Positions 11,756 to 18,962 of a stretch of 32,000 bases of DNA are shown piece by piece. Origin of the DNA: Candidatus Jordarchaeales archaeon (GTDB lineage Archaea; Asgardarchaeota; Jordiarchaeia; Jordiarchaeales; Freyrarchaeaceae). The stretch lies in the NCBI GenBank assembly GCA_038858525.1, contig JAWCFL010000005.1, positions 30,001 to 62,000 on the forward strand, written 5' to 3'. The notes beneath the pieces were generated by a model. It searched no databases and was not told the DNA's origin. It saw only the letters and a program-made list of their open reading frames with translations. The stretch's first letter is position 1. Each line of letters starts with the position of its first letter. A program made the translations under genes and the position numbers.

Positions 11756-13141
11756 ATGGGGGGTTACGGGTTGGTGGAGATCAAAGAAATCCTCCCTGGA
11801 CGCTTCGAGAGGATAGGAGCCCACTCCCACATAAAGGGGCTTGGGCTACGTGGGCTCAAAGCTGAATTAGTTGCTGACGGTATGGTTGGCCAAACCGAGG
11901 CAAGGGAAGCGGCGGGCATAGTGGTCAGAATGATAAGAGAAGGCAAAATGGCTGGAAGAGCTGTGCTTCTAGCGGGTCCACCCGGAACAGGCAAGACCGC
12001 TATCGCCATTGCCATAGCCAAGGAGCTCGGGCCTGATGTTCCAGTCGTGATGATCACGGGGTCAGAAATATATTCTGAGGAGATCAAGAAGACAGAGATC
12101 CTGACGCAAGTGATGCGGAAAGCGATAGGCGTCAGGATACATGAAATGAAGAAGATATACGAAGGTGTCGTCAAGAGCTTGGATGTGACTATGGCCAAAA
12201 ACCCCTACAACCCGTACCAGCAGGTCCCTCAGTCAGCAAAAGTAACCATTGCTACGAAGGACGAGTCGAAGACGTTCGAGGTTGGACAGACGATAGCTAT
12301 ACGCCTGATCAATGAAGGCGTCAGCGTGGGCGACGTCATAATGATAGATGCAGAAACAGGCAGGGTTACCCGCCTCGGAAAGGCTGAGTCACCTGAAGTC
12401 AAGCGGTATGACATAGAAGCGGAGAAGCCCATTCCGGTTCCAACAGGTCCCATACTGAAGGAAAAGGAGTTCGTTTACACGTTAACCCTCCACGACCTCG
12501 ACGAGATAAACGCTAGGAGAAGTAGCTTTTCAATATTCAGCATATTCGGAGGCGGAAGAGAAGAGAAAGAGATCGATCCTGAGATACGAGAAAGAGTAAA
12601 TCAAATGGTGAAAAGCATGGTCGAAGAGGGACGGGCGGAGATACTGCCAGGCGTCTGCTTCATCGACGAAAGCCACATGCTCGACATTGAAGCATACAGC
12701 TTCATAGCCAGAGCAATGGAGTCTGACCTAGCGCCAATAATAATACTCGCGTCGAACAGGGGCTTCACTAAGATAAGAGGAACAGAGCTGGTGTCACCAC
12801 ACGGAATGCCACTCGACCTGCTAGACAGGCTCCTCATAATAAACACTCGGCCATACAACGAGGAGGAAATCAGGGAAATACTCAAAATAAGAGCAAAGGA
12901 AGAAAAGATAGAGATAGAAGAGGAAGCCCTAGAATACCTAACCCAAATAGGGGTAAAGACTAGTCTCCGTTACGCTGTGCAGCTCCTAACGCCAAGCATG
13001 GAACATGCTAAAGAGGCGGGACACAAGAAAATAACTAAAGAAGATGTGCAGTGGGTGGAGAAACTCTTCGCCGATGTCAAGCGCTCAGCTAACTATGTGA
13101 GAAACCTAGAAAGAGAATTCATGATTTCAGAGCCAGCATAA
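11756..13141 (+). CDS. TIP49/RuvB-like AAA+ ATPase (RuvBL1/2 homologue)
   Basis: RIGAHSHIKGLGL, Walker A GPPGTGKT, Walker B FIDESHMLD, sensor ASNRG, GMPLDLLDR, TSLRYAVQLL. Confidence 0.98.
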   Translation: MGGYGLVEIKEILPGRFERIGAHSHIKGLGLRGLKAELVADGMVGQTEAREAAGIVVRMIREGKMAGRAVLLAGPPGTGKTAIAIAIAKELGPDVPVVMITGSEIYSEEIKKTEILTQVMRKAIGVRIHEMKKIYEGVVKSLDVTMAKNPYNPYQQVPQSAKVTIATKDESKTFEVGQTIAIRLINEGVSVGDVIMIDAETGRVTRLGKAESPEVKRYDIEAEKPIPVPTGPILKEKEFVYTLTLHDLDEINARRSSFSIFSIFGGGREEKEIDPEIRERVNQMVKSMVEEGRAEILPGVCFIDESHMLDIEAYSFIARAMESDLAPIIILASNRGFTKIRGTELVSPHGMPLDLLDRLLIINTRPYNEEEIREILKIRAKEEKIEIEEEALEYLTQIGVKTSLRYAVQLLTPSMEHAKEAGHKKITKEDVQWVEKLFADVKRSANYVRNLEREFMISEPA

Positions 13142-14789: not shown

Positions 14790-14861
14790 AGCACACACGA
14801 AGCCAACCGAGAAAACCAAACTCTCCAGCAAAACAATCACTCAACAAACAAGAACAAATAG

Positions 14862-14946
14862 CGGCCCCGAGGGGATTCGAACCCCCGACACCCGGCTTAG
14901 GAGGCCGGTACCCTCTCAGAACACATCCTGGCTGGGTTACGGGGCC
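14862..14946 (-). tRNA. tRNA-Arg(CCT) with a 10-nt D-loop intron (14915-14924, position 20a/21)
   Basis: GGCCCCG TA ACCC AGCCAGGAT [GTGTTCTGAG] A GGGT A CCGGC CT CCT AA GCCGG GTGTC GGGGG TTCGAAT CCCCT CGGGGCC G. All four stems pair and the mature length is 75 nt. Confidence 0.95.
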
Positions 14947-15046: not shown

Positions 15047-15143
15047 GCGGGCGTAGTCCAGCCTGGTCTAAGACGTCGGCCTGCCACGCCGAGGACCCGG
15101 GCGGCTAACACAAAGCCAGGGACTTCAAATCCCGGCGCCCGCA
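15047..15143 (+). tRNA. tRNA-Gly(GCC) with a 22-nt T-arm intron (15102-15123, position 53/54)
   Basis: GCGGGCG TA GTCC AGCCTGGTCTA AGAC G TCGGC CT GCC AC GCCGA GGAC CCGGG [CGGCTAACACAAAGCCAGGGAC] TTCAAAT CCCGG CGCCCGC A. Confidence 0.95.
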
Positions 15144-17016: not shown

Positions 17017-17032
17017 AGAAAGAAATATATAA
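17017..17032 (+). promoter_or_regulatory. BRE-TATA promoter of tRNA-Trp
   Basis: Purine-rich AGAAAGAA followed by ATATATAA, about 27-34 nt upstream of 17059. Confidence 0.65.
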
Positions 17033-17058: not shown

Positions 17059-17257
17059 GGGGGCGTAGCGCAGCTAGAACGGCTTATAAAAAGTGGTAAA
17101 GTAGCGCGGCTGGCTCCAGAAGCAATGAGAACAAACTGGTGCGCTGACCGGAGATGATGACCTTCTGGAGCTCCGAGCTGGAGAGGAGTACCCCCAGAAG
17201 CACCAGTTGGTCGTGGGTTCACCCTTTACAGGGGGCCTTAAAGTCCCACCGCCCCCA
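17059..17257 (+). tRNA. tRNA-Trp(CCA) with four introns: 17078-17100 (18/19), 17120-17201 (37/38, containing nested 17184-17199) and 17221-17240 (56/57)
   Basis: Spliced product: GGGGGCG TA GCGC AGCTAG|GTA GCGC G GCTGG CT CCA G|A CCAGT TGGTC GTGGG TTC|AAGT CCCAC CGCCCCC A. This is a 74-nt canonical cloverleaf (199-23-82-20=74). Confidence 0.93.
17121..17179 (+). ncRNA. Intron-encoded box C/D guide RNA for tRNA-Trp Cm34 and Cm39
   Basis: AGC stem, C ATGAGAA, 12-nt guide CAAACTGGTGCG, D' CTGA, spacer, C' ATGATGA, 12-nt guide CCTTCTGGAGCT, D CCGA, GCT stem. The N+5 rule lands on C39 (17203) and C34 (17116). Confidence 0.92.
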
Positions 17258-17274
17258 TCAAGTTCACTATTTTT

Positions 17275-18347: not shown

Positions 18348-18962
18348 TTGGAAAGGGAGGAGTTAAATGTGCGTTTATGGTTACTTGATATTCTTGCTTG
18401 TCCGGCTGATGGATGTAAGCATTATCCATTAAAGCTTTCGATATTCGAGTGGGAGGACGATAGCGCAAAACGAATATTAAATGCAGGTGAGTCCTACGCT
18501 AAGGGTGATGTTGGAAATATGAAGAAAGAGTTGAAAGGTAGCGTTAAAGTTGATAAAGCTAAGGAAATAGTGGAGGATGAGTTAGCTAGGTCGTCTATGG
18601 AAGTAAATAAGTATATCTCTCTCTTTAAGGAGAAAGTGAATAGCATTTTTAGGAACGTAGTTGTAGATGAAACTGGGGCCTCTACTCAGTTAATAAACGC
18701 GATAATTAACTTCAACCCTCCTTCTAGCCTTGATGAGCCGTTCGAGAAAGCTATATACCTCGCTAATTGGCTTGCCTTCAAGGTGAACGTGCAAAGCGGG
18801 ATTTTAGTTTGCGAGAAATGCGGCCGCTTCTATCCGATAATAGAGACGATCCCCCATATGTTACCTGACGACTTGAGAGACAAAAAGGAGGATAAAGAGT
18901 TCCTTTCGAAGTGGCGGAAGTTTGTTCCAAAAAAGATACTAGAAGCGGAAGGCATCACGTAG
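18348..18962 (+). CDS. trm112: Trm112-family methyltransferase activator, long form with helical insertion
   Basis: RLWLLDILACP...HYPLKL at the N-terminus and VQSGILVCEKCGRFYPIIETIPHMLPD at the C-terminus. Probable start is the GTG at 18369, after GGGAGGAG. Confidence 0.88.
   Translation: MEREELNVRLWLLDILACPADGCKHYPLKLSIFEWEDDSAKRILNAGESYAKGDVGNMKKELKGSVKVDKAKEIVEDELARSSMEVNKYISLFKEKVNSIFRNVVVDETGASTQLINAIINFNPPSSLDEPFEKAIYLANWLAFKVNVQSGILVCEKCGRFYPIIETIPHMLPDDLRDKKEDKEFLSKWRKFVPKKILEAEGIT

What the first reader, a model, noticed from the sequence alone, without database searches (positions are those of the whole stretch)
17177..17202. Nested 16-nt intron inside the anticodon intron that blocks the host splice motif
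The host 37/38 intron has no valid 3' bulge as written. The 16-nt segment AGGAGTACCCCCAGAA (17184-17199) forms its own complete hBHBh': exon pair G17177-C17201, central helix CTGG/CCAG, bulges AG|A and AA|G, intron helix GG/CC. Excising it yields GCT-GGAG-GC|A, which completes the canonical host BHB (CTCC/GGAG, bulges AG|A and GC|A, helix AGC/GCT). Splicing order is therefore forced. One inference is that this acts as a timer holding the C/D guide on the precursor, or controls release of the guide RNA. The nested flanks also duplicate the anticodon sequence CCAGAAGC (17116-17123 and 17194-17201), so they could compete for the Cm34 guide.
Basis: partly seen in the sequence, partly recalled or inferred. 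Interest (0 to 1): 0.92.

Follow-up and report, generated by a model that had tools for sequence, protein, structure and literature searches.

The report
Nested intron in tRNA-Trp guide intron
A 16-base mini-intron sits inside the larger, methylation-guide-carrying intron of the only tryptophan tRNA gene found in this hot-spring Asgard archaeon, and environmental RNA reads show it is really cut out; nested archaeal tRNA introns are already known, so this is a well-supported new example, not a new mechanism.

Summary
Window 17059-17257 (+) is a 199-nt tRNA-Trp(CCA) gene with introns in the D-loop, anticodon loop and T-loop. The 82-nt anticodon intron is a box C/D guide RNA predicted to methylate C34 and C39. 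The 16 nt at 17184-17199 form their own bulge-helix-bulge (BHB). Removing them brings GGAG next to GC|A38 and completes the host motif.

New evidence:
- A metatranscriptome from the same study holds 9 reads (7 start positions) joining 17183-GC-17120. That is a 66-nt circular guide RNA lacking exactly the 16 nt.
- All four species of the genus carry the insert (13-17 nt). It is absent from the sister genus and from six genomes of the neighbouring family.
- The inner helix shows one compensatory change (U-A versus C-G). A fifth variant has a C.A mismatch.

Splicing order is inferred, not shown. One relative keeps GGAG next to the 3' bulge even when unspliced. The timer and decoy ideas are untested.

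Nested archaeal tRNA introns with forced order are already published, and this scan already noted the same feature in a relative (e1-5423945). Verdict: a real new member of a known kind, with unusually direct RNA support.

The parts
17023..17032 (+). TATA-like archaeal promoter element AAATATATAA, about 30 nt upstream of the tRNA 5' end
   Evidence: Read from the sequence. The block AAAGAAATATATA(A/C) is conserved at the same distance in all five family members. Promoter function is inferred.
17059..17257 (+). tRNA-Trp(CCA) gene, 199 nt. Exons 17059-17077, 17101-17119, 17202-17220 and 17241-17257
   Evidence: The spliced 74-nt product is called tRNA-Trp(cca) with a normal cloverleaf by ARAGORN. 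ARAGORN and Rfam miss the unspliced gene. It is the only Trp tRNA gene found in the 92.7%-complete genome.
17078..17100 (+). D-loop intron, 23 nt, bulges AG|A and AA|G, central helix AGCT/GGTA (3 of 4 pairs)
   Evidence: BHB test in five homologs. The 3' cut at 17100|17101 matches the junction of the X14 circular contig.
17120..17201 (+). Host anticodon-loop intron at 37/38, 82 nt as encoded. The mature excised form is 66 nt: 17120-17183 plus 17200-17201
   Evidence: 9 RNA reads from 7 start positions join 17183-GC-17120. Depth is zero over 17188-17201.
17121..17123 (+). AGC: 5' strand of the host intron helix h', which is also the canonical stem of the terminal kink-turn. It pairs with GCT 17177-17179
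   Evidence: AT, GC, CG after inner removal. The kink-turn assignment is read from the sequence.
17125..17131 (+). Box C, AUGAGAA (degenerate; keeps the G-A of the sheared pairs)
   Evidence: It lies exactly 12 nt before box D'.
17132..17143 (+). D' guide CAAACUGGUGCG. It pairs with G17200-T17208, and the fifth-base rule points to C39 (17203)
   Evidence: The guide covaries with its target between genera: A with T43 in this genus, G with C43 in the sister genus.
17144..17147 (+). Box D', CUGA
   Evidence: invariant in five homologs.
17154..17160 (+). Box C', AUGAUGA (perfect consensus)
   Evidence: invariant in five homologs.
17161..17172 (+). D guide CCUUCUGGAGCU. It pairs with 17111-17120 (GCTCCAG|AAG), and the fifth-base rule points to C34 (17116)
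   Evidence: The guide-target duplex is part of the minimum-energy fold.
17173..17176 (+). Box D, CCGA (degenerate CUGA)
17177..17183 (+). Shared segment GCTGGAG. In the primary transcript it forms the inner BHB 5' side (G17177, CTGG, AG of the bulge). After inner splicing it forms host h' (GCT) and the host central helix (GGAG)
   Evidence: The two uses are mutually exclusive by sequence.
17184..17199 (+). Nested intron, 16 nt, AGGAGTACCCCCAGAA
   Evidence: Absent from the RNA circle. Present at 13-17 nt in all four species of the genus. Absent from the sister genus and from six genomes of the next family.
17194..17197 (+). CCAG: 3' strand of the inner central helix, pairing with CTGG 17178-17181
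   Evidence: 100% of cells paired in four species, with one pair changed on both sides (U-A x2, C-G x2).
17200..17201 (+). GC: the last two bases of the host intron and the first two of the host 3' bulge GC|A38. They are retained in the circle
   Evidence: 'GC' stands between 17183 and 17120 in 9 reads.
17221..17240 (+). T-loop intron at 56/57, 20 nt. Central helix GGGT/GCCT 4 of 4, intron helix 5 bp
17270..17274 (+). T5 run, a likely transcription stop
   Evidence: Read from the sequence. T-runs lie downstream in most of the homologs. Function is inferred.

Best explanation
The 16 nt at 17184-17199 are a genuine BHB micro-intron. It was gained in the ancestor of this genus, inside the 3' end of the ancient box C/D guide intron of tRNA-Trp.

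Proposed pathway:
1. In the primary transcript, bases 17177-17183 pair with 17194-17201 and present the inner BHB.
2. The splicing endonuclease cuts after G17183 and after A17199. The genome encodes two paralogous subunits, one closest to catalytic subunits of crenarchaeal enzymes.
3. RtcB joins G17183 to G17200.
4. GCT-GGAG is now free and adjacent to GC|A38. It pairs with AGC (17121-23) and CTCC (17114-17), which forms the canonical 37/38 host BHB.
5. The host intron is then cut at 17119|17120 and 17201|17202. The exons are ligated and the 66-nt intron is circularised into a stable box C/D guide RNA, predicted to direct Cm34 and Cm39.

Shown: all four cut sites, both ligation junctions, and the circular 66-nt product. 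Inferred: the inner intron goes first, and which enzymes act. The insert most likely persists because it is spliceable and nearly neutral, not because it regulates anything.
For: RNA:
- Run X23 is a stranded metatranscriptome from the same study as the source DNA.
- 12 reads map, all within 17118-17187 and all in one orientation.
- 9 reads from 7 start positions carry the permuted junction 17183-GC-17120.
- There is no depth on the 16 nt.

Structure:
- The inner helix pairs 4 of 4. The host helix pairs 2 of 4 before removal and 4 of 4 after.
- The minimum-energy fold of the precursor contains the inner helix.

Comparison:
- The insert is present in 4 of 4 species of the genus, with variable length and loop sequence but a conserved helix and one compensatory pair.
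- It is absent from G004 and from six genomes of the next family, which have a single 64-67-nt intron with a directly formed BHB.

Machinery in the genome:
- Two tRNA_int_endo paralogs. One is closest to solved splicing endonuclease chains 3p1z_B, 3ajv_B and 2zyz_B, and carries motifs resembling the Tyr/His/Lys catalytic triad. The other appears to lack the His (motifs read by eye, not aligned).
- RtcB and fibrillarin are present.

The gene is needed and real:
- The spliced product is a proper tRNA-Trp and the only one found.

Precedent:
- Nested archaeal tRNA introns whose last BHB forms only after the others are removed (PMC3978253, citing Sugahara 2007 and Tocchini-Valentini 2009).
- Stable circular tRNA-Trp introns of 65 nt in Sulfolobus and 105 nt in Haloferax (PMC3326292).
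Against: - Order is not observed. No precursor reads were recovered, and an 82-nt piece re-cut after excision would give the same circle.
- In G001 the unspliced host helix is already 4 of 4, and in G002 3 of 4.
- The covariation is a single event on the species tree: G000 and G003 are sisters at 96% bootstrap. It is not statistically significant with four sequences; 90 of 500 shuffles reach the observed score.
- A fifth variant, in the X14 contig, has C17179 with A17196. That is a C.A mismatch, and its abundant circular by-product still holds the inner intron.
- The flanking helices of the inner motif are only 1 and 2 bp.
- No DNA reads were laid, so a co-occurring allele lacking the 16 nt is not formally excluded.
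- Only 12 reads, from about 5% of one run.
Confidence: 0.78

Rival explanations
1. Host first, inner second, or no fixed order. The broad-specificity endonuclease excises the whole 82-nt piece through a relaxed motif (anticodon stem plus 3' bulge, with a partial or alternative central helix). The inner BHB is then cut out of the free or circular intron, which is re-ligated to the same 66-nt circle.
For: - The 66-nt circle is equally predicted by this route.
- In G001 the unspliced precursor has CTCC/GGAG 4 of 4 next to GC|A, and in G002 3 of 4.
- Other introns of this same gene work with 3 of 4 central pairs.
- Reviews describe two-subunit endonucleases as accepting relaxed hBH and HBh' motifs (PMC4090602; PMC4033280).
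Against: - In this species and in G003 the host central helix has only 2 non-adjacent pairs of 4 and no intron helix.
- Bases 17177-17183 are held by the inner helix in the minimum-energy fold.
- None of the 12 reads covers 17188-17199, so no 82-nt species was seen. That is weak evidence at this depth.
Confidence: 0.17
2. Not splicing but a DNA polymorphism. The circle comes from a co-occurring strain whose tRNA-Trp gene has an ordinary 66-nt intron without the 16 nt.
For: - No DNA reads were laid on the site, because the single read-laying run went to RNA runs.
- Intron presence or absence is known to vary between close archaeal relatives.
- The sister genus has the plain ...GGAG GC|A arrangement.
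Against: - All four species of the genus and the X14 variant carry the insert.
- The X23 reads match the window sequence at the positions where the other species differ; no variant letters were reported for X23.
- DNA runs of the same study hold 100% of the sampled words of the 4.5-kb stretch.
Confidence: 0.04
3. Regulatory timer or decoy. The nested intron is kept by selection because it delays formation of the host BHB. That lengthens the life of the intron-containing precursor, the only form that offers full 9-10-bp targets for both guides. Alternatively, its CCAGAAG copy competes with the anticodon loop for the D guide.
For: - Both guide duplexes straddle exon-intron junctions: GCTCCAG|AAG and GC|ACCAGTT. 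Methylation is therefore best on unspliced precursor.
- The inner helix, the host BHB and the terminal kink-turn stem all compete for 17177-17183.
- The decoy pairing survives in relatives through G.U pairs.
- The insert has been retained through four speciations.
Against: - The sister genus and six genomes of the next family manage with the same guides and no nested intron.
- In G001 the delay would not be enforced.
- Loop sequence and length drift freely.
- The class is reported to average more than two intervening sequences per tRNA gene, gained repeatedly (bioRxiv 10.64898/2026.10.13.758758), so neutral gain is the default.
- In Haloferax the guide acts in trans and the intron is dispensable (PMC4090602).
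Confidence: 0.1

Closest known systems
Nested multiple-intron pre-tRNAs of Crenarchaeota (Sugahara et al. 2007, RNA 13:671; Tocchini-Valentini et al. 2009, PNAS 106:20246), as summarised in PMC3978253
   Same: One BHB intron lies inside another. The BHB of the last intron can form only after the inner one is removed. The same endonuclease and ligase chemistry is implied, and the organism has a two-subunit endonuclease of the type linked with non-canonical introns.
   Different: - The host here is the functional box C/D guide intron of tRNA-Trp, so the inner intron is also an intron of a guide RNA precursor.
- The lineage is an Asgard archaeon (class of Candidatus Jordarchaeia), not Thermoproteales.
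- There is in vivo (environmental) RNA evidence for the fully processed product.
- I could not read either primary paper (not held), so I cannot say whether a tRNA-Trp case was among theirs.
Box C/D guide intron of archaeal pre-tRNA-Trp (Haloferax volcanii: Clouet d'Orval 2001, Singh 2004) and its stable circular form (Sulfolobus solfataricus, 65 nt: Danan 2012, PMC3326292)
   Same: - Position 37/38.
- C, D', C' and D boxes with two guides aimed at positions 34 and 39.
- Guide targets span the exon-intron junctions.
- The excised intron accumulates as a circle of nearly the same size: 66 nt here, 65 nt in Sulfolobus.
   Different: As encoded it is 82 nt, because of the extra 16-nt intron between the central-helix strand GGAG and the 3' bulge. 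The terminal C and D boxes are degenerate (AUGAGAA, CCGA), while C' and D' are perfect.
[quoted passage not shown] 2026 preprint, bioRxiv 10.64898/2026.10.13.758758; Valentin-Alvarado et al. 2024)
   Same: The same class of organisms. Multiple introns per gene, D-arm introns that standard tools miss, and repeated lineage-specific gains at BHB-competent sites.
   Different: A search of that preprint's text finds no 'nested', 'Trp' or 'box C'. Its census counts extra stretches relative to compact relatives, so an intron inside an intron would probably be merged with its host; that is my reading of the method, not a claim the preprint makes.
Tandem or abutting introns at one site, seen here in the sister genus (L005, L129) and noted by this scan in other archaea (e1-4496397, e1-5236828)
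   Same: A compound anticodon-loop insertion resolved by two ordered BHB cuts, with duplicated splice-site segments.
   Different: In the sister genus the extra 38-nt intron follows the C/D intron and would be removed second, re-using the same 5' site. Here the extra intron lies inside the C/D intron and would be removed first.

Membership tests
Archaeal BHB (splicing-endonuclease-dependent) intron | 4-bp central helix flanked by two 3-nt bulges on opposite strands | tested here: met
   CTGG 17178-81 / CCAG 17194-97, 4 of 4 pairs, with bulges AG|A and AA|G. The same geometry holds in all four species.
Archaeal BHB (splicing-endonuclease-dependent) intron | Cleavage after the second base of each bulge, followed by exact ligation of the flanks | tested here: met
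   RNA reads join G17183 directly to G17200-C17201 and then to A17120. That is exactly the predicted set of cut sites.
Archaeal BHB (splicing-endonuclease-dependent) intron | Flanking helices h and h' of at least 2 bp (strict hBHBh') | tested here: inconclusive
   h is 1 bp (G17177-C17201). h' is 2 bp here and 1-2 bp in relatives. This fits only the relaxed forms.
Archaeal BHB (splicing-endonuclease-dependent) intron | An endonuclease of the broad-specificity type, and an RtcB ligase, encoded in the genome | tested here: met
   Two tRNA_int_endo genes. One is closest to solved chains 3p1z_B, 3ajv_B and 2zyz_B. The second paralog appears to lack the catalytic His (read by eye, not aligned). RtcB is present. 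Subunit assembly and substrate range were not tested.
Nested (ordered) multiple-intron pre-tRNA | One intron lies wholly inside another | tested here: met
   17184-17199 lies within 17120-17201. The circle retains host bases on both sides of the deletion.
Nested (ordered) multiple-intron pre-tRNA | The outer BHB cannot form until the inner intron is removed | tested here: inconclusive
   Met by sequence in G000 and G003 (host helix 2 of 4 pairs). Not met in G001 (4 of 4) and borderline in G002 (3 of 4). The actual order was not observed.
tRNA-Trp intron box C/D methylation guide | C, D', C' and D boxes with about 12-nt spacers and a terminal stem | tested here: met
   C AUGAGAA, D' CUGA, C' AUGAUGA, D CCGA. 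Both spacers are 12 nt. Terminal stem AGC/GCU.
tRNA-Trp intron box C/D methylation guide | Guides complementary to the tRNA, with the fifth base upstream of D or D' opposite positions 34 and 39 | tested here: met
   D guide: 10 bp with 17111-17120, pointing to C34. D' guide: 9 bp with 17200-17208, pointing to C39. The guide and target covary between genera. The methylation itself is not testable here.
tRNA-Trp intron box C/D methylation guide | The excised intron is a stable circle | tested here: met
   Permuted junction in 9 reads from 7 start positions. These were the only reads recovered from the locus.

The most novel reading that the evidence does not exclude
Two readings remain open.

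(a) Intron birth by duplication. The extra introns of this tRNA-Trp family may have arisen from short local duplications of an existing splice-site segment.
- In G001 the nested intron is bracketed by a 6-nt direct repeat, CCGGAG...CCGGAG. Its palindromic CCGG by itself supplies both strands of the new 4-bp helix and both AG bulges.
- The sister genus duplicates GG(A/T)GGC|ACCAGC.
- That would be a concrete, testable route for how BHB introns arise de novo. The 2026 Asgard preprint calls intron arrival the central open problem.
- 'Forced order' would then be a later decay of the duplicated GGAG.

(b) Kinetic delay. The nested intron may be retained because it delays host splicing and widens the window for guide-directed Cm34 and Cm39 methylation.
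Probability: 0.15. Interest if true: 0.7.

Novelty: new member of a known kind. Interest (0 to 1): 0.45.

Why it matters
It is a clean natural example of intron-in-intron processing by the archaeal protein splicing machinery, and every cut site is confirmed by RNA from the environment. It occurs in Asgard archaea, whose tRNA intron burden is under active study, and inside the one tRNA intron with a known job, the box C/D guide.

It offers a small comparative series for testing whether splicing order is enforced and how such micro-introns arise: no extra intron in six genomes of the neighbouring family, a nested intron in one genus, and a tandem intron in its sister genus.

It also shows that annotation tools miss this essential gene entirely. 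ARAGORN finds only 11 tRNAs in the whole genome.

Tried and rejected
- The genome contigs pattern scan used a pattern with NN. Only L018 (Jordarchaeia QZM_A3) was useful, and that scan is now spent.
- The metagenome pattern scan gave three contigs that duplicate G003 and G004, so it added no new species.
- Runs X21 and X22 gave zero reads on the stretch, so they are no test of anything.
- A species tree from the DNA flanks failed because the flanks are not syntenic. I used four conserved proteins instead.
- For the 38-nt insert of the sister genus I tested nine registers of a simple single intron and none gave a BHB. It resolved only as a second intron sharing the 37/38 5' site after the C/D intron is removed.
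- I looked for a BHB that could explain the 134-nt X14 circle and found none.
- The primary papers on nested introns (PNAS 2009, RNA 2007) are not held, so that precedent rests on a review's summary.
- The TIP49 look-up in the protein atlas gave no usable taxonomy. The class assignment instead rests on G008 contig 2, whose fetched 2.3-kb stretch is identical to the end of, and whose length equals, a named Jordarchaeia record.

Full report
**1. What is at the site**

Window 17059-17257 (+) is a 199-nt gene that neither ARAGORN nor Rfam reports. Its ends, GGGGGCG and CGCCCCC-A, form an acceptor stem.

Removing three stretches leaves 74 nt that ARAGORN folds as a normal tRNA-Trp(CCA):
- 17078-17100, in the D-loop
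- 17120-17201, in the anticodon loop at position 37/38
- 17221-17240, in the T-loop at position 56/57

It is the only Trp tRNA gene I could find in this genome, which is 92.7% complete, 2.09 Mb and in 63 contigs. ARAGORN sees only 11 tRNAs genome-wide. A TATA-like block about 30 nt upstream is conserved in all five family members, and T-runs lie downstream in most of them.

**2. The host intron is a box C/D guide**

Its parts:
- Box C: AUGAGAA, 17125-31
- D' guide: 12 nt
- Box D': CUGA, 17144-47
- Box C': AUGAUGA, 17154-60
- D guide: 12 nt
- Box D: CCGA, 17173-76
- Terminal stem: AGC 17121-23 with GCU 17177-79

The D guide pairs with GCTCCAG|AAG and places C34 opposite the fifth base upstream of box D. 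The D' guide pairs with GC|ACCAGTT and places C39 there. Both targets span exon-intron junctions, as in the Haloferax tRNA-Trp system (PMC4090602).

Between the two genera of the family, the D' guide changes A to G where the target changes T43 to C43. That supports a working guide. Fibrillarin is encoded in the genome.

**3.

I used a strict geometry test: cuts after the second base of two 3-nt bulges, separated by a 4-bp helix.

- The 16 nt at 17184-17199 give central helix CTGG/CCAG with 4 of 4 pairs and bulges AG|A and AA|G.
- The outer helix is 1 bp and the intron helix 2 bp.
- The host motif as encoded has CTCC facing AGAA, 2 of 4 pairs.
- After deletion the host motif becomes CTCC/GGAG, 4 of 4, with a 3-bp intron helix.
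- The minimum-energy fold of the precursor contains both the guide-target duplex and the inner helix.

The motif alone is only modestly improbable. 76 of 5000 shuffled host introns allow some nested solution, and relaxed BHBs occur about 83 times per kb per strand.

**4. RNA evidence**

The DNA is held by hot-spring metagenome runs. Three raw-read metatranscriptomes come from the same study. Laying them gave the following:

- X21 and X22 gave nothing, so they are no test.
- X23 gave 12 reads, from about 5% of the run. All lie within 17118-17187 and all have the same orientation.
- 9 of those reads, from 7 start positions, carry a permuted junction: 17183, then 'GC', then 17120.
- Depth over 17188-17201 is zero.

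This is the junction of a circular RNA made of 17120-17183 plus G17200-C17201. It is the host intron, 66 nt long and circularised, lacking exactly the 16 nt.

Because GC is retained, G17183 must have been ligated to G17200, and the host must have been cut after C17201. All four predicted cut sites are therefore confirmed to the base. Circular tRNA-Trp introns of 65 nt (Sulfolobus) and 105 nt (Haloferax) are well known and stable (PMC3326292).

**5. Relatives**

| Group | Genomes | Anticodon-loop arrangement |
|---|---|---|
| Same genus | G000-G003 | Nested insert of 16, 16, 13 and 17 nt; variable loop; conserved helix and bulges |
| Sister genus | G004, metagenome contig L129 | Plain ...GGAG GC|A, followed by a 38-nt intron |
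| Next family | Six genomes | Single 64-67-nt C/D intron with a directly formed BHB |

- The inner helix is CUGG/CCAG in G000 and G003, and CCGG/CCGG in G001 and G002. That is a compensatory U-A to C-G exchange (100% of cells paired, one pair changed on both sides).
- A tree from four proteins (1774 aligned columns) puts G000 and G003 together at 96% bootstrap. The exchange is therefore one event, and it is not significant on its own (90 of 500 shuffles).
- A fifth variant, in the RNA contig of run X14, has C17179 with A17196. That is a C.A mismatch.
- In the sister genus, the 38-nt intron shares the same 5' site. It is spliceable only after the C/D intron has gone (central helix 3 of 4 after, 1 of 4 before). 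Alternatively, the two could leave together as one 105-nt piece.
- The nested intron is thus a gain specific to this genus.
- G008 contig 2 has the same length as the GenBank record of 'Candidatus Jordarchaeia archaeon QZM_A3', and its fetched 2.3-kb stretch is identical to that record's end. This places the genome in an Asgard class of only 11 species representatives. A 2026 preprint reports that class as among the most intron-laden known.

**6. Mechanism**

Bases 17177-17183 (GCUGGAG) are used twice. First they form the 5' side of the inner BHB. Later they form the host intron helix, which is also the kink-turn stem, together with the host central helix. The two folds exclude each other.

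In G000 and G003 the host central helix cannot form while the insert is present. The simplest pathway is therefore inner cut and ligation, refolding, then host cut, exon ligation and intron circularisation.

The genome encodes two endonuclease paralogs:
- One carries motifs that look like the Tyr/His/Lys catalytic triad and is closest to solved splicing endonuclease chains 3p1z_B, 3ajv_B and 2zyz_B. From memory, those are catalytic subunits of crenarchaeal heterotetramers.
- The other appears to lack the His. I read these motifs by eye from the translations and did not align them.
- RtcB is also encoded.

What is not shown is the order. The same circle would result if an 82-nt piece were excised first and re-cut. 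In G001 the unspliced precursor keeps GGAG next to GC|A (4 of 4), and in G002 GGAA (3 of 4). I put inner-first at roughly 0.65-0.7 for this species.

**7. Function**

The timer and decoy ideas are possible on paper: the guide targets need the unspliced precursor, and CCAGAAG is a second partner for the D guide. But the sister genus and the neighbouring family carry the same guides without the insert. The loop drifts freely. The class gains tRNA introns repeatedly. A nearly neutral, spliceable insertion is the more economical reading.

**8. Comparison with what is known**

Nested archaeal tRNA introns whose last BHB forms only after the others are removed were described in 2007-2009. A later review summarises them (PMC3978253). 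I could not read the primary papers.

This scan has also logged many such cases, including this same feature in relative G002 (e1-5423945).

What is particular here:
- the host is the guide-RNA intron
- the lineage is an Asgard archaeon
- the processed product is seen in environmental RNA

I file it as a new member of a known kind.

**9. Origin (speculative)**

In G001 the insert is bracketed by the direct repeat CCGGAG...CCGGAG. CCGG is a palindrome, so the repeat by itself creates the helix and both AG bulges. The sister genus duplicates GG(A/T)GGC|ACCAGC. Short duplications of splice-site segments could therefore be how these micro-introns are born. I did not test this.

Noticed in passing
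window 17101-17240 (as seen in run X14, a G002-like strain): An abundant circular contig: 134 nt, depth 51.8, against 3.3 for the linear 5' leader contig. It joins the last base of the T-loop intron back to G17101, the first base after the D-loop intron. It still contains the unspliced host and inner introns. No BHB pairs these two sites. It is probably a dead-end by-product of partial cleavage followed by ligation.
   Followed up: partly
L005:1501-1713 (G004) and L129 (metagenome contig Ga0180301_10015559): In the sister genus, tRNA-Trp has two introns in tandem at 37/38: the 67-nt C/D intron and then a 38-nt intron. The 38-nt intron begins with a decoy copy of exon 2 (ACCAGC) and ends with GGTGGC, a copy of the host 3' end. 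The C/D intron would have to go first, or both could leave as one 105-nt piece.
   Followed up: yes
L004:1646-1661 (G003); also L127 and L128: The G003 tRNA-Trp gene carries a fifth insertion, 16 nt in the variable loop, flanked by TTGGT direct repeats. Its BHB register is ambiguous: 3 of 4 or 4 of 4 central pairs, but almost no flanking helices.
   Followed up: partly
L002:1614-1646 (G001): The nested intron is bracketed by a perfect 6-nt direct repeat, CCGGAG...CCGGAG. The palindromic CCGG supplies both helix strands. This suggests origin by local duplication of the host 3' splice-site segment.
   Followed up: no
window 17132-17143 compared with L005: The D' guide and its target covary between genera: guide A with T43 here, guide G with C43 in G004. 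This supports a functional Cm39 guide.
   Followed up: yes
window 14861-14946 (-) and 15047-15143 (+): There are two more interrupted tRNA genes nearby. Rfam calls 15047-15143 a tRNA with a 29-nt insertion in the T-arm. I did not resolve this.
   Followed up: no
whole genome G000: ARAGORN with introns allowed finds only 11 tRNA genes in 2.09 Mb, which fits near-universal multiple interruption. Standard annotation of this genome would lack most tRNAs, including tRNA-Trp.
   Followed up: partly
G008:C2 / L018 / L162: G008 contig 2 has the same length (21831) as JAHAWU010000050.1 (Candidatus Jordarchaeia archaeon QZM_A3), and its fetched 2.3-kb stretch is identical to that record's end. This places the window's genome in the same order as a named Jordarchaeia (Asgard) MAG. 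Its tRNA-Trp has D-loop, C/D and T-loop introns but no nested piece.
   Followed up: yes
window 18348-18962 (+): A 204-aa protein whose Trm112p Pfam match spans residues 12-165 while covering only profile positions 4-38 of 40.
   Followed up: no
window 11756-13141 (+): A full-length TIP49/RuvB-like AAA+ ATPase (Pfam E-value 7e-142). Its nearest protein-atlas clusters are almost all eukaryotic, which fits an Asgard genome.
   Followed up: no
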